Shown: positions 1-8,291, counted from the stretch's first letter. The stretch: 64,000 nt of DNA from an uncultured Clostridia bacterium (GCA_944380265.1 CALWGY010000002.1:3556-67555); one strand, 5' to 3'. The notes: a model not told the origin generated them from the letters alone. Made by a program: numbers and translations.

Positions 1-189
1 AGTGCTGAGAGCAATTCTTTATTTTAAATATGTTTCTTGTAGGGAATTTGAAAAAAATAAGGAATGCAAAGGTTGATGAAAGAGGTGCTTTCAATAAGAA
101 AATTTTTCTTGAAAGTGTAAGTGAGAAGAATGATTAATAACAATATAGTTTTTTTTAAAAAAGAGATATAAAAGACAAATATGAAATTA

Positions 190-222
190 AAATACTTAAT
201 CAATTTGGTTAAGTATTTTTTT
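190..222 (+). terminator. putative intrinsic terminator of an upstream off-window gene
   Basis: Inverted repeat aaatacttaa / ttaagtattt with a 9-nt loop, followed by a T-run. Confidence 0.4.
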
Positions 223-286
223 GTAAAATTTTATTGTTTATAATACATTAATGAATTTTTTATGCTATACTGTATTTGAGGTTTAT

Positions 287-679
287 ATGAAAGAAATTAA
301 GGTAGTTGCAGGAATTATTGAAAATAATGGTAAAATTCTTTGTATGCAAAGAGATAAAGGAAAGTATGATTATGTCTCTTTTAAGTGGGAATTCCCCGGT
401 GGCAAAATTGAAGAGGGTGAAACTAATGAAGAAGCACTTAAAAGAGAATTGTTAGAAGAAATGGATTTAGACGTTATTGTTGGAATTCATTTTTGTGATG
501 TTGAATATACATACCCAGATTTTAAACTTACCATGTTTTGCTACAAATGCAATACAAAGGATCTTGATTTTAAATTAAATGTGCATAAAGATTACAAATG
601 GCTAGAAAAATCTGAATTAAATATTATTGACTGGGCTCCTGCGGACATGATAATTGTAAAGAAGCTAATGGAGGAGTAA
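287..679 (+). CDS. NUDIX hydrolase (MutT-like nucleoside triphosphate pyrophosphohydrolase)
   Basis: ORF 251..679 contains the Nudix box GGKIEEGETNEEALKRELLEEMDL. ATG 287 is preferred because an SD-like tgaggt lies 5 nt upstream. The stop is 2 nt before the next ORF. Confidence 0.8.
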   Translation: MKEIKVVAGIIENNGKILCMQRDKGKYDYVSFKWEFPGGKIEEGETNEEALKRELLEEMDLDVIVGIHFCDVEYTYPDFKLTMFCYKCNTKDLDFKLNVHKDYKWLEKSELNIIDWAPADMIIVKKLMEE

Positions 680-681
680 TA

Positions 682-3600
682 ATGAATTTTGGACTTTATG
701 AGCAAATTATTAATAAAGCTTTAAATGATATTGATGAAAATGATATTCAAGTTGAAAAAAGAAAAATAGATAAAGAAAATGTGCCTAGAATATTATCTAA
801 TTATTTGTCTGAAGTTTTAGAAAAAGGTTTAAAAGATTTATCTGAGAATAATTACACAATAGAAGAACAGTTAAATTTTTGCAATTATATTATTAATAAA
901 ATAAAAGATGAAACTAAAGATGAATACTATTCAAGTCAACTAATTTCGAAAGATGCCGAAATGTTATATTCTTTAATGAATAAAAAGAATAGTATAAGAG
1001 TATTAAAAACGGATTATCCAATAAGACCAAACTATTCTATTGCAGAGCCTTTTGTGTTTACTGGTGCAAACACTGAAATTCAATTGCTTAGTGAATTAAA
1101 AAAAGAAATTTCTAGTTGTGATGAAATAGATTTTATCGTTTCATTTATCAAATGGAGTGGAATAGTAAGGCTTTTAGATGAATTAAAAGAATTTACCGAC
1201 AATGGTGGTAAATTAAGAATTATAACAACGACTTATACTGGAGCAACTGAAGCAAAAGCCATTGAACGATTATGCGAACTAAACAATACTGAGATAAAAA
1301 TATCATATAATACAAAACAAACGCGACTGCATGCTAAAAGCTATATATTTAAAAGAAAAACTGGTTTTTCTACCGCTTATGTTGGTTCTTCTAATATTTC
1401 AAGTGCAGCTCTTACAAGCGGAACCGAATGGAATGTTAAAGTTACCGAAAAAGAGATGAAAGATGTTTATGATAAAATATGTGGAACCTTTGAAGTATAT
1501 TGGAACAGTGAAGAATTTGAAAAATATAATAAAGAAGATAATGAAAAATTAAGAAACAATTTATATCAAGAAAAGTCTCCAAAATCATTTAATTTAGAAG
1601 AATACAATTTTGATATTATTCCATATCCTTATCAAGAAAGAGTTCTTGAAAAACTTAGAGTAGAAAGAGAAAATCGCGACAATTTTAGAAACTTAGTAGT
1701 TGCAGCTACAGGAACAGGCAAAACGGTTATGTCTGCATTTGACTTTAAACGTTATCTACAATCACAACATGGAAGAAAAGTCAAATTTTTATTTGTAGCT
1801 CATAGAGAAGAAATTTTAAAACAAAGCTTAAAATGTTTCAGAGGGATTTTAAGAGATAATAATTTTGGAGAATTAATGGTTGGTGGAATTTTACCCAAAA
1901 GTATTGATAATTTGTTTGTATCAATTCAAACATTTAATTCTAAAAAGTTATATGAAAAATTAGCACCTGATTTTTATGATTATATTATTGTTGATGAATT
2001 TCATCACGCGGCAGCAGAAGGATATCAAAAGTTATTATCACATTTTAAACCAAAAATTTTACTCGGACTTACTGCAACACCAGAAAGAATGGACGGAAAA
2101 GATATTTTACAATATTTTGATGGTAAAATATCTGCTGAGATTAGACTTCCAGAGGCAATCGATAGAGGTTTACTTGTACCATTTACTTATTTTGGTATTT
2201 CAGATGAAATAGATTTAAGTTCTGTAAAATGGACTAGAGGTGGATATGATATACAAGAACTTAGCAATGTTTTATCATTTAATAAAGCAAGAGCAATGAC
2301 TGTTTTAAAATCATTAAATAAATACCTTAATGATATTGATACAATAAAAGGATTAGGGTTTTGTGTTAGTCAGCAGCATGCTCAATTTATGGCAAAAGTG
2401 TTTAATGACGCTGGAATACCATCTATCGAACTTGATAGCAACTCTTCAAAAGAATTAAGAGAAAATGTTAAAGATAAATTAGTAAAGGGCGAAATAAAGT
2501 TTATATTTGTTGTGGATTTATATAATGAAGGTGTTGATATTCCAGAAGTAAATACGGTTTTATTTTTAAGACCAACAGATAGTTTAACAGTATTTTTACA
2601 ACAATTAGGTAGAGGTTTAAGACTCTGTAAAGGAAAGGATTCTTTAACGGTTTTAGATTACGTTGGACAAGCTAATAAAAAGTATAGATATGCCGATAAA
2701 TATCAAGCTCTTCTAGGTGTTAATGCAATGTCTGTTTCTACCGAAATAAAAAATGGATTTCCAAATCTTCCAAAGGGCTGTTTTATAACATTGGAAAAGA
2801 AAGCCCAAGAATATGTATTAAGCAACATTAAGCAATCGTTTAATAATAAAGCAAACTTTATTGAAAAATTTAAAAATTTTGAAAGTGACAGTGGACTCGT
2901 CCTAAATTATAAAAACTTTTTTGAGTATTATAATATAAATCCGGCTAAATTATATAATATAGGATTATCTTTCACTTGGCTACAAAATTCAAATGTTATT
3001 GATGATGATAAATTTTTAACATTTTTATCTAGAAGTACACAAATAAATTCTTCTGCGTGGATAAAACGACTGTTAGATTTACTTCCAAAAATAAAAAATG
3101 CTAAACATATTGAATTAACAGAATATGATAAACGTTGTCTTTTAATGTTTCATTATACTTTTGAAACTCAAAAATCCCCAAAAGATTTAGGATATAATAA
3201 CGTCATTGAAAGTATAGAACAGATTGTAAATTCAGCATACTATGAAGAAATAATAGAACTATTAAATTATAACTTTTCAAAAATAGACATAGTTAATAGC
3301 CAGTTAATAAAATTTAGTAATTGTCCTTTGGAATTGTATTCTGCATATTCTAATGCGCAAATACTTGCTGGTTTTGGTGAATATACAGAAAGTAGATATT
3401 TTCCACTAACATCAGGTGTGTGGTATATAGAAAATGAAAAAACAGATATATTTTTTGTAACCTTAAACAAATCTGAAAAACATTATGCACCTGAAGTTAA
3501 ATATGAAGATTATTCCATTAACGATGAATTATTCCATTGGCAGTCACAAAATAAAACGGATATAAATTCGCCAACGGGACAGCGTTATATAAATCATAAA

Positions 3601-3798
3601 AAAACTAACAATAATATATTATTGTGTGTTAGAAATTATAGAGCGAATGAATATGGTAATACAGAAAATTATTCTATTTTAGGTTATTGTGATTATGTTT
3701 CACACGAAGGATCGAGACCTATTTCAATTATATGGAAAATGCATAACAAAATACCTGCAAAGTTTATTGAAAAAACTAGTAAATTGATGGTTAATTAA
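682..3798 (+). CDS. HKD (PLD-family) nuclease fused to an SF2 DEAD/DEAH-type helicase, with a DUF3427-like C-terminal region
   Basis: 1038 aa. Single HKD motif: LHAKSYIF...VGSSNIS. Helicase motifs: AATGTGKT (I), DEFHH (II), TATPER (III), QQLGRGLR (VI). The C-terminal ~350 aa (..HWQSQNKT..) resembles DUF3427 as I recall it. GGAGGAG SD lies just upstream, inside the NUDIX 3' end. Confidence 0.8.
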   Translation: MNFGLYEQIINKALNDIDENDIQVEKRKIDKENVPRILSNYLSEVLEKGLKDLSENNYTIEEQLNFCNYIINKIKDETKDEYYSSQLISKDAEMLYSLMNKKNSIRVLKTDYPIRPNYSIAEPFVFTGANTEIQLLSELKKEISSCDEIDFIVSFIKWSGIVRLLDELKEFTDNGGKLRIITTTYTGATEAKAIERLCELNNTEIKISYNTKQTRLHAKSYIFKRKTGFSTAYVGSSNISSAALTSGTEWNVKVTEKEMKDVYDKICGTFEVYWNSEEFEKYNKEDNEKLRNNLYQEKSPKSFNLEEYNFDIIPYPYQERVLEKLRVERENRDNFRNLVVAATGTGKTVMSAFDFKRYLQSQHGRKVKFLFVAHREEILKQSLKCFRGILRDNNFGELMVGGILPKSIDNLFVSIQTFNSKKLYEKLAPDFYDYIIVDEFHHAAAEGYQKLLSHFKPKILLGLTATPERMDGKDILQYFDGKISAEIRLPEAIDRGLLVPFTYFGISDEIDLSSVKWTRGGYDIQELSNVLSFNKARAMTVLKSLNKYLNDIDTIKGLGFCVSQQHAQFMAKVFNDAGIPSIELDSNSSKELRENVKDKLVKGEIKFIFVVDLYNEGVDIPEVNTVLFLRPTDSLTVFLQQLGRGLRLCKGKDSLTVLDYVGQANKKYRYADKYQALLGVNAMSVSTEIKNGFPNLPKGCFITLEKKAQEYVLSNIKQSFNNKANFIEKFKNFESDSGLVLNYKNFFEYYNINPAKLYNIGLSFTWLQNSNVIDDDKFLTFLSRSTQINSSAWIKRLLDLLPKIKNAKHIELTEYDKRCLLMFHYTFETQKSPKDLGYNNVIESIEQIVNSAYYEEIIELLNYNFSKIDIVNSQLIKFSNCPLELYSAYSNAQILAGFGEYTESRYFPLTSGVWYIENEKTDIFFVTLNKSEKHYAPEVKYEDYSINDELFHWQSQNKTDINSPTGQRYINHKKTNNNILLCVRNYRANEYGNTENYSILGYCDYVSHEGSRPISIIWKMHNKIPAKFIEKTSKLMVN

Positions 3799-3837
3799 AA
3801 TAAGTGATAATAAATTATTAAATAAAGCATAACATCT

Positions 3838-3871
3838 AAAAACCGTAATGAAATACTATTACGGTTTTTTT
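3838..3871 (+). terminator. intrinsic terminator after the nuclease-helicase gene
   Basis: 11-bp perfect stem aaaaccgtaat / attacggtttt, 8-nt loop, then a T-run. Confidence 0.65.
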
Positions 3872-4408
3872 GTACAAGAAAAGAATAGAGCAATAGACTC
3901 TATTCTAAATGCAATGGAAAAAGGAATAATAACATCGTCAACACAAGAAAGACTTATGAAACTTGAAAACGAAAAAGCAATACTTGAAGATAAAGTTGAG
4001 TATGAACAAAACCATCAAATAAAACCACTAGAAAAAGAACAAATTGTGGATTTTTTAAAAGTATATGCAAGAAAACAGTTTGATAACAAAACAGATAAAA
4101 ACGAGTTCTTTAACAATTTTATTTTGAAAGTGTTACTTTATGACGACAAAATTACAATAGTTTACAATACAAGTTTAAACCCAGCAGAAGAAAAATATAG
4201 CAGTCCAAATGATAATGATGATAACAATGACAATAGTAACAATGGAACGACAATTTATAAGAAAGAAATTGAGATTTCAGACGATGAAAATAAGGACGAA
4301 GCGTCCTTGCGTAAACTAAAAAAATTGCCGTTTGAGTTCAAACGACAATTGTTTGGCGGAGAGTTAGGGATTCGAAACATAACTAATATTAAAAAAACAA
4401 CGAAATAA
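3848..4408 (+). pseudogene. relic of a large serine recombinase gene (C-terminal tail only)
   Basis: EKNRAIDSILNAMEKGIITSSTQERLMKLENEKAILEDKV...NNFILKVLLYDDKITIVYN matches the conserved C-terminal coiled-coil tail of large serine recombinases. There is no catalytic N-terminal domain. The nominal start lies inside the preceding terminator hairpin, and the 3' end reads through the attL core. Confidence 0.5.
4352..4376. repeat. attL core: 25-bp copy of the tRNA-Ser 3' end
   Basis: tttggcggagagttagggattcgaa is identical to 23072..23096. Only the last 22 nt of the tRNA plus 3 nt downstream are present here. Confidence 0.85.
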
Positions 4409-4426
4409 AGGCAATTTCTAATTTTT

Positions 4427-4447
4427 ATTCTACTCACATTCTACTCA
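4427..4447 (+). promoter_or_regulatory. putative arm-type recombinase binding sites (P' arm): ATTCTACTCA x2 at 11-bp period
   Basis: attctactca c attctactca lies about 50 bp from the att core. The same doublet occurs at 12989..13009 and, as attctactca a attctactcg, at 22966..22986 in the opposite arm. Confidence 0.4.
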
Positions 4448-4455
4448 ATAAAATC

Positions 4456-4490
4456 AAAAAACAAGGGTAAATTTTAACCCTTGTTTTTTT
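4456..4490 (-). terminator. bidirectional intrinsic terminator ending the leftward prophage operon
   Basis: Stem aaaaaacaagggt / acccttgtttttt with an 8-nt loop, flanked by A/T runs on both sides. The duplicate is at 13018..13052. Confidence 0.6.
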
Positions 4491-4494
4491 AAAT

Positions 4495-4770
4495 TTACAA
4501 CCACAATTTAAAGCACGAAAAAACACTCCAAACGTTTAAACCAAGTAATAAAATTGAAAATGCTAAGTCTATATAATTAAAGTTTACACTGCTTTTTATT
4601 GTTAATGTAACACTTGATATAATGACCATAAAAGCAAGTATTAACGCAATTATTCCATAAATCAAAAAATTTGTCCAAACATCTATTTTATAACTTAACC
4701 ATAGAGAAACAATAGTTAAAACTAATAAAAAGATATATGTAAAAACTCTATTTAAAATATTATCATTCAT
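4495..4770 (-). CDS. small three-TM membrane protein (prophage)
   Basis: 91 aa with three hydrophobic segments. Last gene of the leftward operon. Confidence 0.6.
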   Translation of the reverse strand: MNDNILNRVFTYIFLLVLTIVSLWLSYKIDVWTNFLIYGIIALILAFMVIISSVTLTIKSSVNFNYIDLAFSILLLGLNVWSVFSCFKLWL

Positions 4771-4778
4771 AAAATCAC

Positions 4779-5852
4779 CTACGCAATATGTGAGTGTTTA
4801 TACATTTTTAATGAAACATTTCCGCCAACAAAAATACCGCCAAATGTATTTTCACCATCACCACTTAAATATTCCCAACGATAAGAACCAGAAATTAAAA
4901 ATTCAATATCATCATCATCGATAATTGTTCCATAATCTACCAAACGAGTTCCTAACAATGTTATGCCATCAACATCATAAAAACTAACTAAACATTTTTC
5001 AATTTCATAAACAGCATAAAAAGTTGTATCATCATTAATTTGAACATCTGACAAATTATCAATTATATCAACATTGTTTAAAGACCAGCCTTTAAATATA
5101 TAACCATCTTTTGTTGGTGGAATTACATTTTCATTTAAAGTTTTTCCTTTTAACAAATCAAAATGTTTAAACTCTTCATTATCAACAATAAATTTTACGC
5201 AATTAAAATTTTCTAACACATCATCTTCATTAATAGGAATATCTTTAACAGGCTTAATTTCAATTTTAAAACCATTGTTATTAAAGTAATCATTCCAATA
5301 ATTAACGGCTTTTGCTCCGCCAGTTGTTGTGATATTTAATCTTGTTGATTGTTTATAAAAAACTAATTTAATATTTAAAGTATCTTTAATTAATTCTGAA
5401 TAATTATCATCATAAAAAACATATGTATAATTAACATCAACAAAATCAATTGAAGAATTAATAATATTTGTTGGAGTATCATTAACTAAAATTATATAAC
5501 TTGTATTTTTGCTTAATTCCAATGCTTCATTTTTAACAATTGTTAAATCATATTTATTTTCTTCCGCAGTTGACTTTAAAACAAGATTATTTAATTTAAA
5601 AGTCATTTCGTTAACTTTAATATCTGGTTTAATAACAGAAGATATTACACCATAAACACCACCACTTGCACTATAATATTTATTAATTTCTATACCAGCA
5701 AGAAAAGTAACAAATATGTACAAAACACCTATACAAGTAAACAAAATATATCTAAAAGTTGTAGAGCGAATAAAAATAATTAATAATATTAAAATTATTA
5801 CAAGTAACAAAATATCATAAATTATTGAAAAATCAAATAACCATTTAAACAT
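4779..5852 (-). CDS. membrane-anchored protein with a C-terminal Listeria-Bacteroides (Flg_new-type) repeat; candidate adsorption protein
   Basis: ORF 4779..5885. Start at MFKWLF (5852) is preferred because an SD-like gggggtgg lies upstream and it removes the overlap with the upstream gene. N-terminal TM helices are present. PPTKDGYIFKGWSLNN...TTFYAVYE fits the GYxFxGW repeat. Confidence 0.6.
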   Translation of the reverse strand: MFKWLFDFSIIYDILLLVIILILLIIFIRSTTFRYILFTCIGVLYIFVTFLAGIEINKYYSASGGVYGVISSVIKPDIKVNEMTFKLNNLVLKSTAEENKYDLTIVKNEALELSKNTSYIILVNDTPTNIINSSIDFVDVNYTYVFYDDNYSELIKDTLNIKLVFYKQSTRLNITTTGGAKAVNYWNDYFNNNGFKIEIKPVKDIPINEDDVLENFNCVKFIVDNEEFKHFDLLKGKTLNENVIPPTKDGYIFKGWSLNNVDIIDNLSDVQINDDTTFYAVYEIEKCLVSFYDVDGITLLGTRLVDYGTIIDDDDIEFLISGSYRWEYLSGDGENTFGGIFVGGNVSLKMYKHSHIA

Positions 5853-7086
5853 TTTCGCCACCCCCAACATCAATTGAAAAACCATTTAAAATTTCATTAT
5901 AAAGTTGAAAACCACAATAAGTTTTTTCATTTGGTGCATTTACATTAATGTTATGTTTTAAAAACTCTTCATAATCTATATAAACATTCAATTTAATTAC
6001 ATCTTTATAATTAGAATATTTTGATAAAAAAGAGTCATCTAAAATTAAATCATATGTTCCATCAACATTGTCAATTAATTTAAAATTATTAGTGTTAACA
6101 TCAACTATTGAACGACCAATAAAATAATTATCTTCAACAGAATTTTCAACAAGATAATTAGGTGATGCATGCAACAAACCAAACAAACTATCGGAAGAAC
6201 TTTTTGCACCATCTTCACTAATTTTTATTGATATAGCATAATAATTCTTAACATGGTTAACCACTTTTGTACTATCTTCCATTGGCATTTCATCAAAAAC
6301 ACCATCGCCTTTATATTCGTAATAATCAAATAAATCGGCAAAATCAAAAACAATCATATTGTTAGTTCCATATTTTAGAGTTCCACAAGATTTTTTCAAC
6401 AAAAAACTTAAATAATGAACATCAAAATATGAATAATATGATGCATAATTTTGAACGCCCCATAACACGTTAAAATCGTAACCATCTTCAAAATCAGCGA
6501 CATGTGATAAATCATTCATAGGTGTGTTTAGACCCTTAAATTTCATACCATAAACTTCATTACCAATTTCAATTACAAAAAAATCATCTATTGTTATTTC
6601 ATTAGTTGAATAATATGAAATTCCAGAAATATTATCAACAGTATAACAATAACTAGTACCATTTACACCAGGACTAAAAGACCCCCAGTAAGAATAGTAA
6701 TCTTTTGCGTTATACCAACCACCAACATGTTTAATTTTTTCGCCCTTTACTGCATTGTTATAATGATAAGCATAATCAACAAAACCATTAACATCTTTTG
6801 AAATATATTGAAAACCTTTTGAAGAAATAGTTGTTTTGTTTTGGTCCGACAAACTATTTAATTTTATTTCAAACATTTCAAACCCATTTTTATTTTTGTT
6901 GGTATAATAATTAAATTCAATAATTGGTTTAACAACAGAACCATCTTCTGATGTTTGCAAATCTACATAAAAAGCATTATTAACGTTTTTTTCAGGTGCA
7001 AAAAATAAAATGTACAAATACCAAAAATTAACAATTAGTGTTAATGCAAAAGTGCAAATTCCAATTATAATTAATGTTTTTTTCAT
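5845..7086 (-). CDS. secreted or membrane-anchored prophage protein, function unknown
   Basis: 413 aa. N-terminal hydrophobic signal/anchor MKKTLIIIGICTFALTLIV. No recognisable motif. Confidence 0.6.
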   Translation of the reverse strand: MKKTLIIIGICTFALTLIVNFWYLYILFFAPEKNVNNAFYVDLQTSEDGSVVKPIIEFNYYTNKNKNGFEMFEIKLNSLSDQNKTTISSKGFQYISKDVNGFVDYAYHYNNAVKGEKIKHVGGWYNAKDYYSYWGSFSPGVNGTSYCYTVDNISGISYYSTNEITIDDFFVIEIGNEVYGMKFKGLNTPMNDLSHVADFEDGYDFNVLWGVQNYASYYSYFDVHYLSFLLKKSCGTLKYGTNNMIVFDFADLFDYYEYKGDGVFDEMPMEDSTKVVNHVKNYYAISIKISEDGAKSSSDSLFGLLHASPNYLVENSVEDNYFIGRSIVDVNTNNFKLIDNVDGTYDLILDDSFLSKYSNYKDVIKLNVYIDYEEFLKHNINVNAPNEKTYCGFQLYNEILNGFSIDVGGGENV

Positions 7087-7094
7087 ATAACCCC

Positions 7095-8069
7095 CTAAAA
7101 AATGTTATCAATTTCTTCTTTTAACATTTTTTCTTCTTCTTTATTTAATTTAATAAAATCAGAACGATACAAATCTTTATAATTTTCACGTTCAACATAA
7201 GTTCCAGTTTTATCAATTCGCAATATTGTTTTAATGCGTTCGTTAAACGCATTATAAATTATAGGTTTATTTCTTTGCTCATCTTTATAAATTTCATTTA
7301 ATGGCAAATTTGAAATTATATAAACTTTTGTATAACATGCAACTTTATTCGCATAACGTGCAGGTAACATAAAAGGGTAAACATCTAAAAGTCTATTCAT
7401 AAGTTCAATTTTAAATTGTCCACTAAATTCATCTAACACCAATATGTCTTCATTTTTGTAATTATCAAAAGTAGAATTGTTATAAACACTTGCATGATAA
7501 AATTTGCCAAAACCATATTTATCATAAACATAACGAGTTTTACCAGTTCGTGGTGGTCCATAAATAAAAGTAACATCAACATCACGATTTTTAATTAAAA
7601 ATTCAGAACTTAAATAATCTGTTCTAATCTTTTCAATTTTTGTTAAATTACTTAAATAAAGTTTAGGGAATAATCTAGCAAGTTCTAAATCAGTTGCACC
7701 ATTTTGAACTAGTTCAATAAAATTAGATATATCAGTCCTTGCTCGTTCTTCCGCAAAAGTTCCCAATTCATACGGACCACTTATTCTTGTTTCAGATTTT
7801 GTGCAATAATCACGTGCTTGTGCATTAGTTCCTTGAACTGGTTCAATATGTGCCGTTGGAAAGTAATTTTTTAATGTACTAAATCTTTTACCAACGTTAA
7901 ATATTAAAAATACTTGAAAATGTATTATTTCTTTTTCTTCACCTTTTTCACGTTGGAAAGCACAATATTTAAAGTGTTCTAATTTTTGAACATAATCAGA
8001 AAACTCATCATCACTTTCAGATGGATTATTTATTGTTAAAAACCATCTTCTTTTCATTGTATCAGTCAT
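7095..8069 (-). CDS. rep: rolling-circle replication initiator: HUH endonuclease + SF3 helicase (CRESS-DNA-virus-like Rep)
   Basis: Motif I WFLTINNP, motif II HFQVF, motif III YCTKSE, Walker A GPPRTGKT, Walker B ILVLDEF, motif C YIISN, all in the canonical order within 324 aa. Confidence 0.85.
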   Translation of the reverse strand: MTDTMKRRWFLTINNPSESDDEFSDYVQKLEHFKYCAFQREKGEEKEIIHFQVFLIFNVGKRFSTLKNYFPTAHIEPVQGTNAQARDYCTKSETRISGPYELGTFAEERARTDISNFIELVQNGATDLELARLFPKLYLSNLTKIEKIRTDYLSSEFLIKNRDVDVTFIYGPPRTGKTRYVYDKYGFGKFYHASVYNNSTFDNYKNEDILVLDEFSGQFKIELMNRLLDVYPFMLPARYANKVACYTKVYIISNLPLNEIYKDEQRNKPIIYNAFNERIKTILRIDKTGTYVERENYKDLYRSDFIKLNKEEEKMLKEEIDNIF

Positions 8070-8079
8070 AATTCACCCT

Positions 8080-8159
8080 ATGTTACACAGTAAAATAGCA
8101 TATGTTACAATTTTTTTTATTAAAAAATGGCTTAATATAGTGCTATGTTACGATGTTAC
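8080..8159 (-). repeat. four Rep-proximal iterons (GTAACAT on the rep-sense strand)
   Basis: ATGTTAC at 8080, 8102, 8145 and 8153 on the + strand. They lie between the origin hairpin and the rep start codon. The duplicate is at 16642..16721. Confidence 0.6.
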
Positions 8160-8199
8160 GCAGTTGGCTAAAAGGTAATACTATCTTTTAGCCAACTGC
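8160..8199 (-). promoter_or_regulatory. putative rolling-circle origin hairpin with a TAGTATTAC loop
   Basis: Perfect 15-bp stem gcagttggctaaaag / cttttagccaactgc. The 10-nt loop reads ATAGTATTAC on the - (rep-sense) strand. Predicted nick TAGTATT/AC between 8177 and 8176. Confidence 0.7.
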
Positions 8200-8227
8200 T
8201 AATTTTATAAAGTTTCAATTTGTAACC

Positions 8228-8260
8228 GCGGAACGGCACGCAGGCTTGTTGCCGTTCCGC
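8228..8260 (+). other. GC-rich hairpin (terminator-like, or a candidate complementary-strand origin or packaging element)
   Basis: 11-bp stem gcggaacggca / tgccgttccgc with an 11-nt loop, followed by ttgtttttt. It is strikingly GC-rich for this DNA. The duplicate is at 16790..16822. Confidence 0.4.
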
Positions 8261-8291
8261 TTGTTTTTTGCCTTGCAAGGTCAATGGTCAG

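What the first reader, a model, noticed from the sequence alone, without database searches (positions are those of the whole stretch)
287..3798. Translationally coupled NUDIX hydrolase plus HKD-nuclease/SF2-helicase/DUF3427-like giant protein beside an integration hotspot
The NUDIX stop and the 1038-aa ORF start are 2 nt apart, and the latter's SD (ggaggag) lies inside the NUDIX gene. This suggests a two-gene operon.

The large protein combines a single-HKD PLD-family nuclease domain, a full set of SF2 helicase motifs and a large C-terminal domain of unknown function. Nuclease-helicase fusions of this style recur in anti-phage systems.

The pair sits directly next to a tRNA site that has captured at least two mobile elements. 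A NUDIX partner could act on nucleotides or a signalling molecule.

I am not aware of a characterised defence system with exactly this pairing, but that statement is from memory only.
Basis: inference. Interest (0 to 1): 0.6.

Follow-up and report, generated by a model that had tools for sequence, protein, structure and literature searches.

The report
SauUSI-type restriction enzyme with NUDIX partner
This gene pair is a new example of a known bacterial defence unit: a SauUSI-type enzyme that cuts foreign DNA carrying methylated cytosine, plus its known NUDIX neighbour, whose role is untested and probably is to destroy methylated-cytosine nucleotides.

Summary
A 130-aa NUDIX gene (287-679) ends 2 nt before a 1038-aa gene (682-3798), and GGAGGAG (670-676) lies inside the NUDIX gene.

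The large protein is a SauUSI-family Type IV (modification-dependent, ATP-dependent) restriction endonuclease. Evidence: PADLOC mREase_IV 3.9e-220; PDB 7CLG 1e-79 by sequence and 2.6e-46 by fold. All four SauUSI catalytic residues, the SF2 motifs and most of the 5mC pocket are conserved.

The pairing is not new. Xu et al. 2011 reported a MutT/NUDIX gene linked to sauUSI and to at least 60 homologues. Monk et al. 2012 deleted it without losing restriction. I confirmed the S. aureus arrangement (1-nt gap).

Across 94 homologous loci, a NUDIX of this family lies within 1.2 kb in 58 loci (21 of 43 clusters), in three gene orders. None was found in 323 kb of more distant flank.

The closest characterised NUDIX (B. 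fragilis Q5LBB1, 46.5% identity) hydrolyses 5-methyl- and 5-hydroxymethyl-dCTP, the bases SauUSI recognises in DNA. In two NUDIX-less clusters a DCTPP1-like MazG protein takes its place. I infer that the partner sanitises the modified-dCTP pool.

Verdict: a new member of a known kind. The partner's function remains a small open question.

The parts
186..286 (+). Conserved leader upstream of the NUDIX gene. It includes an inverted repeat at 189-219 that marks the left edge of the block shared with relatives. The promoter is presumed to lie here but was not identified.
   Evidence: Nucleotide homology to L001-L004/L029 (93-95%) and L024 (79%) starts at 186-258. The palindrome was seen as a reverse self-match, L004 5509-5539 against window 219-189. 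The promoter scan was no better than shuffles.
287..679 (+). NUDIX hydrolase, 130 aa, of the '(deoxy)nucleoside triphosphate pyrophosphohydrolase' family (PADLOC PDC-S07). Predicted to be a 5-substituted (d)CTP pyrophosphohydrolase.
   Evidence: Pfam NUDIX 2e-15. PADLOC PDC-S07 4.5e-48. PDB 3GWY 3.4e-35, 46.5% identity over 129 aa without gaps. S. aureus SauUSI-linked NUDIX (PDB 5X1X) 1.5e-25, 41.9% identity. Scores fall below the NCBIfam cut-offs for MutT and NudG.
670..676 (+). Shine-Dalgarno sequence GGAGGAG for the large gene, inside the NUDIX coding sequence. The NUDIX stop is at 677-679 and the next ATG at 682.
   Evidence: Read directly from the sequence. The same junction type is seen in L004 (TAATG overlap) and S. 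aureus (TAA-T-ATG).
682..3798 (+). SauUSI-family Type IV ATP-dependent, modification-dependent restriction endonuclease, 1038 aa.
   Evidence: PADLOC mREase_IV 3.9e-220. PDB 7CLG (SauUSI) 1.2e-79 over aa 131-982. AlphaFold model pLDDT 87.8; Foldseek top hit 7CLG 2.6e-46, next RadD 1.9e-17.
682..1050 (+). N-terminal, mostly helical extension (aa 1-~123). It is absent from SauUSI and has no family match. Function unknown.
   Evidence: SauUSI aligns from aa ~131. There is no Pfam hit here. Helices 31-55, 60-78 and 81-86 have pLDDT about 80-90. The extension is conserved in the ~1040-aa subfamily and absent in 945-aa forms such as P0389.
1051..1566 (+). PLD-family (single HKD) nuclease domain, aa ~124-295. 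Catalytic residues are H217, K219, N238 and E249.
   Evidence: Pfam PLDc_2 and RE_NgoFVII. The four residues align with SauUSI H119, K121, N139 and E150 and are invariant in 13 and 62 homologues. Those SauUSI residues were mutated by Xu et al..
1618..2688 (+). SF2 DExH helicase-like ATPase/translocase, aa 313-669. Motifs: GTGKT 344, DEFH 438, TATP 464, QQLGRGLR 640.
   Evidence: Pfam ResIII 2.9e-38 and Helicase_C 3.4e-13. Motif positions. The motifs are invariant in A3.
2689..3321 (+). Alpha-helical coupler region between the ATPase and the recognition domain, aa ~670-880.
   Evidence: Aligned with the SauUSI coupler (residues 618-805). All-helical in the model. Domain definition from PMC7913695.
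3322..3795 (+). C-terminal SRA-like target-recognition domain (DUF3427), aa ~881-1038. Pocket residues: F925, V926, D943, W953, Y915/W914.
   Evidence: Pfam DUF3427 5e-21. These align with the modelled SauUSI 5mC-pocket residues F841, I842, D858, W868 and Y831. M829 is replaced by S911 in a variable column.
3839..3872 (+). Hairpin followed by a T-run (AAAAACCGTAAT-8 nt-ATTACGGTTTTT). Probable terminator of the two-gene operon and the right edge of the conserved block.
   Evidence: Read from the sequence. The homology block ends at 3851-3873. The terminator scanner did not call it, because the T-run is part of the stem. This is an inference.
4319..4376 (-). Displaced tRNA-Ser terminator (4323-4350) plus the last 23 nt of tRNA-Ser (4354-4376). 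This is the left junction of the 18.7-kb insertion and marks the original tRNA site next to the pair.
   Evidence: Exact 23-nt duplicate of 23074-23096, with 0 expected by chance. 58 nt are 97% identical to L004 9339-9396, beside its tRNA-Ser. Terminator-like hairpin reported.
23074..23161 (-). tRNA-Ser(tga), the integration target. A tyrosine integrase gene (21671-22993) lies next to it. This is context and not part of the system.
   Evidence: ARAGORN. Pfam Phage_integrase 8e-17.

Best explanation
The region is a nudix-sauUSI-type operon.

The 1038-aa protein is a solitary (methylase-less) Type IV restriction enzyme of the SauUSI family. By homology with SauUSI, it would work as follows (all inferred, not tested here):
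- The C-terminal SRA-like domain flips out and recognises 5-methyl- or 5-hydroxymethyl-cytosine in incoming DNA.
- Recognition switches on the SF2 motor, which translocates along the DNA using ATP.
- The N-terminal PLD domains of a dimer cut the DNA repeatedly.
- Methylated phage or plasmid DNA is thus shredded, while the unmethylated host chromosome is spared.

The co-transcribed 130-aa NUDIX enzyme is not needed for cutting; this was shown in S. aureus. I infer that it hydrolyses 5-methyl-dCTP and 5-hydroxymethyl-dCTP to the monophosphates.
- This would stop modified cytosine nucleotides, salvaged from degraded foreign DNA or made by a phage, from being built into the host chromosome and turning it into a target of its own nuclease.
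- As a side effect, it would starve phages that need such nucleotides.
For: Identity of the nuclease (shown):
- PADLOC mREase_IV 3.9e-220.
- 7CLG 1.2e-79 by sequence across nuclease, ATPase, coupler and TRD.
- Foldseek 7CLG 2.6e-46, with the next hit 29 orders of magnitude weaker.
- H217/K219/N238/E249 equal the four catalytic SauUSI residues. The SF2 motifs are intact. Pocket residues F925/V926/D943/W953 are conserved (residue roles).
- No methyltransferase motif occurs in any ORF of 150 aa or more in the 64-kb window.

Operon (shown):
- 2-nt gap with an internal SD.
- Both genes form one conserved nucleotide block, 186-3870, whose flanks are not alignable in the relatives sampled.
- Same order and a 1-nt gap in S. 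aureus.

Linkage (shown):
- NUDIX at 100 bits or more lies within 1.2 kb in 58 of 94 loci and 21 of 43 clusters at 85% identity.
- It occurs in three arrangements: upstream, downstream same strand, and convergent.
- There are 0 hits in 323 kb of more distant flank against 58 in 199 kb of near flank.
- NUDIX/PDC-S07 is the most frequent neighbour family, 15 of 150 neighbour ORFs.
- Published linkage: at least 60 cases.

NUDIX role (inferred):
- The closest characterised relative, Q5LBB1/3GWY (46.5% identity, gapless), hydrolyses 5-Me-dCTP and 5-hydroxymethyl-dCTP at 4-5 x 10^6 M-1 s-1. Its activity on canonical NTPs is low (PMC5158307). These are the two bases SauUSI recognises.
- Deleting nudix in S. 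aureus Newman did not abolish restriction. This fits a protective rather than a catalytic role.
- A MazG-like protein lies 21-154 nt downstream of the nuclease gene in two NUDIX-less clusters, L055 and L096. Its best solved relatives include dCTP pyrophosphatase 1 (1.4e-17). It is also present in L084 and L106. DCTPP1 is linked to 5-methyl-dCTP metabolism (PMC4491611).
Against: - No activity of either window protein was measured.
- At 46.5% identity, NUDIX substrate preference may differ. NCBIfam scores do not separate MutT from NudG, and both are below cut-off.
- The characterised Q5LBB1 orthologues are stand-alone genes, not next to a SauUSI-like gene.
- Stand-alone NUDIX genes 65-73% identical to the window's are common in Clostridia. 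The family therefore has a role independent of the nuclease.
- About half of SauUSI-like clusters have neither NUDIX nor MazG within 4 kb. One is L030, 73% identical to the window enzyme.
- Partner phylogenies agree only weakly (Mantel r 0.30).
- One homologue, ScoA3I, is listed in PMC6765204 under a heading stating no modification-dependent activity in vitro. Specificity within the family is therefore not guaranteed.
- TRD residue M829 is not conserved (S911).
Confidence: 0.62

Rival explanations
1. The NUDIX is an ordinary housekeeping MutT/NudG-type pool sanitiser with no functional tie to the nuclease. The nuclease gene has simply landed next to it, or shares its transcript for convenience.
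For: - Close homologues (65-73% identity) and the characterised B. fragilis orthologues stand alone among housekeeping genes.
- The window NUDIX is closer to those than to other nuclease-linked NUDIX genes (33-55% identity).
- Half of the nuclease clusters lack it.
- Delta-nudix had no restriction phenotype.
Against: - Adjacency recurs in Bacillota and Bacteroidota, in three different gene orders and in 21 of 43 clusters. There are 58 near hits against 0 distant hits.
- The two genes travel as one nucleotide block between different contexts.
- An unrelated pyrophosphatase fold with a related published preference (MazG/DCTPP1-like) occupies the same position in other loci.
Confidence: 0.2
2. 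The NUDIX is itself an anti-phage effector (PADLOC candidate PDC-S07). It destroys the 5-hydroxymethyl- or 5-methyl-dCTP that cytosine-modifying phages must make. The pair would then attack such phages twice, at the nucleotide pool and at the DNA.
For: - The PDC-S07 model matches at 4.5e-48, and it matches all 15 linked NUDIX neighbours.
- Q5LBB1 hydrolyses 5-hydroxymethyl-dCTP as well as 5-methyl-dCTP.
- The neighbourhoods hold other defence genes: Mokosh, GajB, AbiO, Nhi, DpdF-like and HsdR.
Against: - In the papers I read, PDC-S07 appeared only in PADLOC output listings, with no phage test of it (8 papers hold the term).
- The family is frequent in non-defence contexts.
- Removing the phage's modification would also remove the nuclease's target, so the two activities would partly cancel each other.
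Confidence: 0.13
3. The NUDIX supports the nuclease's ATPase chemistry or regulation. It might remove pyrophosphate or by-products of ATP/dATP hydrolysis (as suggested in 2011), or hydrolyse a signalling nucleotide that controls the enzyme.
For: The pyrophosphate idea was suggested by Xu et al.. Translational coupling implies co-expression.
Against: - SauUSI works in vitro without the NUDIX, and restriction in vivo survives its deletion.
- No sensor or cyclase is present.
- From general knowledge rather than a tool result: SF2 ATPases release phosphate, not pyrophosphate, and NUDIX enzymes do not hydrolyse free pyrophosphate.
- The closest relatives are NTP pool sanitisers.
Confidence: 0.03

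Closest known systems
SauUSI of Staphylococcus aureus (Type IV restriction enzyme; PDB 7CLG) with its upstream nudix gene (SAUSA300_2432/2431)
   Same: - Same gene order, with a near-identical junction: NUDIX stop 1 nt before the start in S. aureus, 2 nt here.
- Same four-domain architecture: PLD nuclease, SF2 ATPase, helical coupler, SRA/DUF3427 TRD.
- Identical catalytic H/K/N/E residues and intact helicase motifs.
- Most 5mC-pocket residues are conserved.
- No adjacent methyltransferase.

   Different: - Only 27% identity overall (244 of 894 aligned positions).
- The window protein has a ~110-aa helical N-terminal extension that SauUSI lacks.
- TRD residue M829 is replaced by S911.
- It matches the second PADLOC mREase_IV model far better (PDLC03659, 731 bits) than the SauUSI-length model (PDLC03658, 280 bits).
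- The host is an uncultured, AT-rich Clostridia bacterium (best match Candidatus Caccovivens faecavium MAG).
- Recognition sequence and modification preference are untested.
Bacteroides fragilis Q5LBB1 (PDB 3GWY), a 5-methyl-/5-hydroxymethyl-(d)CTP pyrophosphohydrolase, and E. coli NudG (Orf135)
   Same: - Same single-domain, ~130-aa NUDIX fold.
- 46.5% identity to Q5LBB1 over the full length without gaps.
- Same Nudix-box variant ending in D instead of G.
(activities)
   Different: - Q5LBB1 orthologues are stand-alone genes beside a DprA-like gene, not linked to a nuclease.
- The window protein scores below the NCBIfam cut-offs for NudG (81 against 156) and MutT (86.6 against 97.9).
- Its activity is untested.
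PADLOC candidate PDC-S07
   Same: The window NUDIX matches the model end to end (4.5e-48, 160 bits). So do all 15 NUDIX neighbours of SauUSI-like genes that were sampled.
   Different: PDC-S07 is listed as a single-gene candidate with no described function. Here, and in S. aureus, the gene is the partner of a Type IV enzyme. That linkage may be why the family looked defence-associated (inference).
ScoA3I (Sco2863) of Streptomyces coelicolor, a SauUSI homologue of 945 aa
   Same: Described as strongly homologous to SauUSI and predicted from genetic evidence to restrict modified plasmids. Forms of 945 aa without the N-terminal extension are close relatives of the window protein (P0389).
   Different: - It lacks the N-terminal extension.
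- It is listed in PMC6765204 under a heading stating no modification-dependent activity in vitro.
- I did not align it directly with the window protein.

Membership tests
SauUSI-family Type IV restriction endonuclease | N-terminal PLD-family nuclease with a single HxK motif and the catalytic residues H119, K121, N139, E150 (SauUSI numbering) | tested here: met
   PLDc_2 1.2e-11. H217, K219, N238 and E249 align with the four residues and are invariant in 13 and 62 homologues.
SauUSI-family Type IV restriction endonuclease | Central SF2 DExH helicase-like ATPase with intact Walker A, DExH, motif III and motif VI | tested here: met
   ResIII 2.9e-38 and Helicase_C 3.4e-13. GTGKT 344, DEFH 438, TATP 464, QQLGRGLR 640.
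SauUSI-family Type IV restriction endonuclease | Alpha-helical coupler followed by a C-terminal SRA-like TRD (DUF3427) with a 5mC-flipping pocket (Y831, F841, I842, D858, W868; finger M829) | tested here: met
   DUF3427 5e-21. F925, V926, D943, W953 and Y915/W914 are conserved. M829 corresponds to S911, in a variable column. The whole-chain fold match to 7CLG spans 933-946 columns. The pocket residues come from a model in PMC7913695, not from a DNA complex.
SauUSI-family Type IV restriction endonuclease | Whole-protein homology to the solved enzyme, stronger than to other helicase-nucleases | tested here: met
   phmmer 7CLG 1.2e-79 against HsdR 3H1T 3.7e-27. Foldseek 2.6e-46 against RadD 1.9e-17. 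PADLOC mREase_IV 3.9e-220 against PbeA 5.8e-38 and Type I REase 3.2e-20.
SauUSI-family Type IV restriction endonuclease | Solitary: no cognate DNA methyltransferase | tested here: met
   No PCQxFS-type or (D/N/S)PP(Y/F/W) motif in any ORF of 150 aa or more in the 64-kb window. No methylase appears among the recurrent neighbour families of 43 homologous loci. Only 286 nt are available upstream in the window itself.
SauUSI-family Type IV restriction endonuclease | ATP-dependent cleavage of 5mC/5hmC-containing DNA and not of unmodified DNA | not testable with these tools
   This needs purified protein and modified substrates.
nudix-sauUSI operon (Xu 2011; Monk 2012) | A MutT/NUDIX gene of the '(deoxy)nucleoside triphosphate pyrophosphohydrolase' family immediately beside the nuclease gene on the same strand | tested here: met
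   Window: 2-nt gap. S. aureus L112: 1-nt gap. The window NUDIX is 41.9% identical to the S. aureus partner. Both match the same PADLOC/Pfam models.
5-substituted (d)CTP pyrophosphohydrolase (Q5LBB1/3GWY type) | Nudix box plus close full-length homology to the characterised enzyme | tested here: met
   The Nudix box GGKIEEGETNEEALKRELLEEMD is read from the translation. 3GWY 3.4e-35, 46.5% identity, no gaps.
5-substituted (d)CTP pyrophosphohydrolase (Q5LBB1/3GWY type) | kcat/Km above 10^6 M-1 s-1 for 5-Me-dCTP or 5-hm-dCTP and much lower for canonical NTPs | not testable with these tools
   Measured only for Q5LBB1 (PMC5158307).
MutT 8-oxo-dGTP diphosphatase (NCBIfam TIGR00586) / NudG (NF007834) | Score at or above the curated equivalog cut-off | tested here: not met
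   TIGR00586: 86.6 bits against a cut-off of 97.9. NF007834: 81 against 156. NF008044: 79 against 148.
Type I / Type III restriction-modification enzyme | HsdR/Res subunit working with HsdM/S or Mod subunits encoded nearby | tested here: not met
   Similarity is confined to the helicase core: EcoAI family 121 bits against a cut-off of 550. No methyltransferase or specificity gene was found. The nuclease is of the PLD type, not PD-(D/E)XK.

The most novel reading that the evidence does not exclude
Type IV enzymes that cut 5mC/5hmC DNA may carry a dedicated 'pool guard'. This would be a pyrophosphatase for 5-methyl- and 5-hydroxymethyl-dCTP, either a NUDIX of the PDC-S07/Q5LBB1 type or, interchangeably, a DCTPP1-like MazG protein.

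The guard would keep salvaged or phage-made modified cytosine nucleotides out of the host chromosome and so prevent autoimmunity. It would play the protective role that a methyltransferase plays for a classical restriction enzyme, but by denying the mark rather than adding it.

I did not find this proposal in the searchable literature.
Probability: 0.4. Interest if true: 0.55.

Novelty: new member of a known kind. Interest (0 to 1): 0.27.

Why it matters
As a sequence feature it is ordinary. The enzyme family is large: at least 150 clusters at 50% identity score above 598 bits. It has been characterised in S. aureus and is already modelled in PADLOC. RefSeq still labels the homologues I looked at as 'DEAD/DEAH box helicase' or 'DUF3427 domain-containing protein', so flagging them as Type IV restriction enzymes has practical value. 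Such enzymes are the main barrier to transforming bacteria with E. coli-grown (Dcm-methylated) DNA, which matters for anyone trying to engineer these gut Clostridia.

The one open question is what the conserved NUDIX partner does. It was noted in 2011 and has not been explained since. Three observations assembled here make the question directly testable:
- The nearest characterised homologue has 5-methyl-/5-hydroxymethyl-dCTPase activity.
- The linkage persists in several gene orders.
- A DCTPP1-like enzyme takes the NUDIX position in some loci.

Tried and rejected
1. Is the biochemically characterised NUDIX (B. fragilis Q5LBB1/3GWY) itself next to a SauUSI-like gene? No. Its orthologues P0121 and P0122 stand alone beside a DprA-like gene. 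The activity link therefore rests on homology only.

2. Do the NUDIX and the nuclease co-evolve as a strict cassette? Only weakly (Mantel r 0.30, 1 of 2000 permutations). The window NUDIX is closer to stand-alone Clostridia copies than to other linked copies. I dropped the idea of a single ancient two-gene module.

3. I found no solved complex or signalling component that would make the NUDIX part of the nuclease machinery. Published genetics also argue against this.

4. The promoter scan of 1-4600 gave no more hits than shuffled sequence. No promoter is claimed.

5. I looked at three plasmid or chromid homologues (Pseudoalteromonas, Peptoclostridium, Hymenobacter). No NUDIX is annotated beside them. 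They add nothing beyond the ~50% linkage figure.

6. A literature search for PDB 5X1X gave only irrelevant papers. The Lutz 2019 paper, the 2025 EcoSal review and the 2025 SauUSI single-molecule preprint do not mention the NUDIX.

7. Pfam, PADLOC, NCBIfam and PHROGs gave no hit for the 3848-4408 ORF. Calling it a recombinase fragment is an impression only.

8. There is no compositional anomaly. The pair has 27.7% GC against 29.7% for the window.

Full report
**1. Observation**

The window holds a 130-aa ORF from ATG 287 to TAA 677-679 and a 1038-aa ORF from ATG 682 to 3798 on the same strand. Two nucleotides separate the stop from the start. GGAGGAG occupies 670-676, inside the first gene and 7 nt before the second ATG.

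The first ORF could open at ATG 251. However, homologues are 130-131 aa and a GAGG precedes 287, so 287 is the likely start.

Pfam finds NUDIX in the small protein. In the large protein it finds PLDc_2, ResIII, Helicase_C and DUF3427.

**2. What the large protein is**

It is a member of the SauUSI family of Type IV restriction enzymes, which are ATP-dependent and cut only modified DNA.
- The PADLOC model mREase_IV matches at 3.9e-220.
- The only solved structure with comparable similarity is 7CLG, the SauUSI crystal structure. It matches at 1.2e-79 over residues 131-982, against 3.7e-27 for the next hit, a Type I HsdR fragment.
- An AlphaFold model built on 62 homologues is confident (mean pLDDT 87.8, pTM 0.77). 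Its best fold match is again 7CLG (2.6e-46, 933-946 aligned columns). The next match, RadD, is 29 orders of magnitude weaker.

In a multiple alignment that includes the S. aureus protein taken from L112:
- The four residues Xu et al. mutated in their SauUSI catalytic mutants (H119, K121, N139, E150) correspond to H217, K219, N238 and E249. These are invariant in 62 homologues.
- The helicase motifs are intact: GTGKT 344, DEFH 438, TATP 464, QQLGRGLR 640.
- Of the residues modelled to form the 5-methylcytosine pocket of SauUSI, F841, I842, D858 and W868 correspond to F925, V926, D943 and W953.
- Y831 corresponds to Y915 or W914, depending on the alignment. The inserting residue M829 is S911, in a variable column.

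No methyltransferase signature occurs in any ORF of 150 aa or more in the 64-kb window, as expected for a solitary Type IV enzyme.

Differences from SauUSI:
- Overall identity is only 27%.
- There is a helical N-terminal extension of about 110 residues with no family match.
- The second PADLOC mREase_IV model fits much better than the SauUSI-length one (731 against 280 bits).

The family is large. At least 150 clusters at 50% identity score above 598 bits, and most of them are about 1030-1060 aa.

**3. What the small protein is**

It belongs to the family that NCBI names '(deoxy)nucleoside triphosphate pyrophosphohydrolase' and matches PADLOC candidate PDC-S07 at 4.5e-48. It scores below the curated cut-offs for MutT and NudG.
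- Its best solved relative is 3GWY (3.4e-35; 46.5% identity over 129 residues without a gap).
- The second best is 5X1X (1.5e-25). I showed that 5X1X is 99% identical to the S. aureus protein encoded immediately upstream of sauUSI.
- 3GWY is B. fragilis Q5LBB1. Nguyen et al. measured its kcat/Km as 4.8 x 10^6 M-1 s-1 for 5-methyl-dCTP, 4.4 x 10^6 for 5-hydroxymethyl-dCTP and 6.7 x 10^6 for 5-methyl-CTP. Activity on 5-OH-dCTP was about 50-fold lower, and activity on canonical NTPs was low (PMC5158307).

**4. The pairing is already known**

Xu et al. 2011 wrote that a conserved MutT/NUDIX gene (SAUSA300_2432) is linked to sauUSI. They also reported that at least 60 SauUSI-like enzymes are linked to such pyrophosphohydrolases, and that the function remained to be examined.

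Monk et al. 2012 deleted the gene in strain Newman. The strain did not become transformable, so the NUDIX is not required for restriction.

I confirmed the S. aureus arrangement from sequence. The NUDIX gene occupies 5001-5393 and the 953-aa SauUSI gene occupies 5395-8256 in L112, with the junction TAA-T-ATG.

Later SauUSI papers and reviews that I checked do not mention the NUDIX. Full-text searches combining Nudix with Type IV or modification-dependent restriction return only the 2011 and 2012 papers and one unrelated paper.

**5. How conserved is the linkage?**

From the nuclease side, I collected 14 genome loci and 80 metagenome loci and searched their flanks with a NUDIX profile.
- A NUDIX scoring at least 100 bits lies within 1.2 kb of the nuclease gene in 58 loci.
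- After clustering the nucleases at 85% identity, 21 of 43 clusters have at least one linked member.
- The position varies. It is upstream on the same strand, as here, in about 8 clusters (gaps from -4 to +40 nt, one of 357). It is downstream on the same strand in about 10 clusters. It is downstream and convergent in 3.
- As an internal control, the 323 kb of flank lying more than 1.2 kb away contains no such NUDIX, against 58 in 199 kb of near flank.
- In a census of 150 neighbouring ORFs from the 43 cluster representatives, NUDIX/PDC-S07 is the commonest family, with 15 members.
- The next most common families are helicases and nucleases typical of defence islands: SLFN-g3 helicase, NERD, UvrD and DUF2726. 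PADLOC reports AbiO, Nhi, DpdF, PbeA, Mokosh and GajB.

From the NUDIX side the picture is mixed.
- Homologues at least 76% identical to the window's are followed directly by the nuclease gene. P0005/L023 is cut by the contig end. P0008/L024-25 has a frameshifted copy next to a Type I HsdR gene.
- Homologues at 65-73% identity, and the B. fragilis orthologues, stand alone among housekeeping genes.
- The window NUDIX is only 33-55% identical to the other linked NUDIX genes. Partner divergences correlate weakly (Mantel r 0.30, 1 of 2000 permutations).

Within the window's own lineage the two genes move together. Nucleotide similarity to L001-L004, L029 and L024 covers 186-3870 and stops on both sides.

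So the NUDIX family has a life of its own. Its association with SauUSI-type genes is nonetheless recurrent, rearranged and far above chance, which is the signature of a functional tie rather than shared descent.

**6. An independent pointer to the partner's role**

Among the NUDIX-less loci, two clusters (L055, L096) have a 107-109-aa gene 154 and 21 nt downstream of the nuclease gene on the same strand.
- It is a MazG-like protein (PF12643, 7.5e-23).
- Its best solved relatives include mouse and human dCTP pyrophosphatase 1, RS21-C6/DCTPP1 (1.4e-17).
- The same family is also present near the nuclease in L084 and L106, which have a NUDIX as well.
- DCTPP1 is linked to 5-methyl-dCTP metabolism (title and abstract of PMC4491611).

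Two unrelated folds with a related published preference, found in the same genomic position, argue that the selected activity is hydrolysis of modified dCTP.

**7. Most likely mechanism**

Shown: the identity and completeness of the nuclease, the operon structure and the statistical linkage.

Inferred from SauUSI work: the TRD recognises 5mC or 5hmC, the motor translocates on ATP, and the dimeric PLD site cuts repeatedly.

Inferred from homology and context: the NUDIX converts 5-methyl- and 5-hydroxymethyl-dCTP to monophosphates.

The reading I favour (about 0.6 for the whole package, and about 0.4 for the specific self-protection role) is as follows. A cell that shreds methylated DNA, or is infected by a cytosine-modifying phage, is exposed to modified deoxycytidine nucleotides. 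If these were re-phosphorylated and incorporated, they would create targets for its own enzyme. The partner removes them. This fits the lack of a restriction phenotype in delta-nudix.

Rivals:
- An unrelated housekeeping sanitiser (0.2).
- A direct anti-phage pool-depleting effector (0.13).
- A helper of the ATPase or a regulator (0.03).

**8. Context**

The organism is an AT-rich (29.7% GC) uncultured Clostridia bacterium. The best match is a Candidatus Caccovivens faecavium MAG, with 97% protein identity.

Evidence that the pair originally adjoined a tRNA-Ser gene:
- The 23-nt 3' end of tRNA-Ser is duplicated exactly at 4354-4376 and 23074-23096.
- The sequence 4319-4376 matches the terminator and tRNA end found 257 nt after the homologous nuclease gene in L004.

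An 18.7-kb insertion carrying a tyrosine integrase (21671-22993) has since separated the pair from the tRNA gene.

In L004, a 51-nt direct repeat of that same tRNA-flank sequence (2131-2181 and 9334-9384) brackets a 7.2-kb block. The block consists of a metallophosphoesterase-STAND NTPase gene plus the NUDIX-nuclease pair. In that relative the pair is therefore itself cargo of a tRNA-Ser island.

**9. Verdict**

This is a real, intact system and a new member of a known kind. Both the enzyme family and the NUDIX linkage have been in the literature since 2011 and are covered by PADLOC models.

Interest is low to moderate. The remaining value is a sharpened, testable hypothesis for the long-unexplained NUDIX partner, together with the observation that a DCTPP1-like MazG protein can take its place.

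Noticed in passing
window 4377-23073 (copies at 4367-12412 and 12929-20974): An 18.7-kb insertion in tRNA-Ser holds two copies (99.96% identical) of an 8.56-kb element. The element encodes a CRESS-virus-type Rep (7095-8069, minus strand: Pfam Viral_Rep 5.5e-11 plus an S3-helicase-type RNA_helicase domain). It also encodes a Zot-like NTPase (8862-9707; phrog_197 1.2e-6), a Listeria-Bacteroides-repeat protein and several large proteins with no family match. Only the right copy is followed by a complete XRE gene and a tyrosine integrase. The middle junction (about 12925-12940) lies inside a truncated XRE gene. It looks like an integrated filamentous or ssDNA phage-like element with an unusual Rep.
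   Followed up: partly
window 3848-4408 (+): A 186-aa ORF starts inside the operon's terminator hairpin and runs through the displaced tRNA terminator and tRNA remnant. It has no hit in Pfam, PADLOC, NCBIfam or PHROGs. The stretch 3871-4318 is absent from the relatives, so it is probably a remnant of another mobile element.
   Followed up: partly
window 23447-23923 (+): A second, unrelated NUDIX gene (158 aa; Pfam NUDIX 8.3e-13; only 29.7 bits against the profile of the SauUSI-linked family) lies just beyond the tRNA-Ser gene.
   Followed up: no
L004 2131-9384: A 51-nt direct repeat (the tRNA-Ser terminator plus the first bases of the tRNA 3' end, 90% identical) brackets a 7.2-kb block. The block contains a 989-aa metallophosphoesterase + STAND-NTPase protein (2332-5301) and the NUDIX-nuclease pair. 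No integrase lies inside. It appears to be a small tRNA-Ser defence island.
   Followed up: partly
L055 7304-7630, L096 5182-5502, L084 3565-3882, L106 123-461: MazG-like (PF12643) genes, related to dCTP pyrophosphatase 1, lie beside SauUSI-like genes. In L055 and L096 they occupy the place of the NUDIX.
   Followed up: yes
L024 5396-8513 and L025 3059-6176: A relative of the nuclease gene (81% protein identity) is split into three called ORFs (543, 99 and 378 aa). This is either a pseudogene or an assembly error. It keeps its NUDIX gene upstream, and a Type I HsdR gene follows.
   Followed up: no
plasmid and chromid records NZ_CP032091.1, NZ_CP007453.1, NZ_CP007144.1 (L115-L117): RefSeq names full-length homologues of this Type IV enzyme 'DEAD/DEAH box helicase' or 'DUF3427 domain-containing protein'. 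The restriction function is therefore not visible in standard annotation.
   Followed up: no
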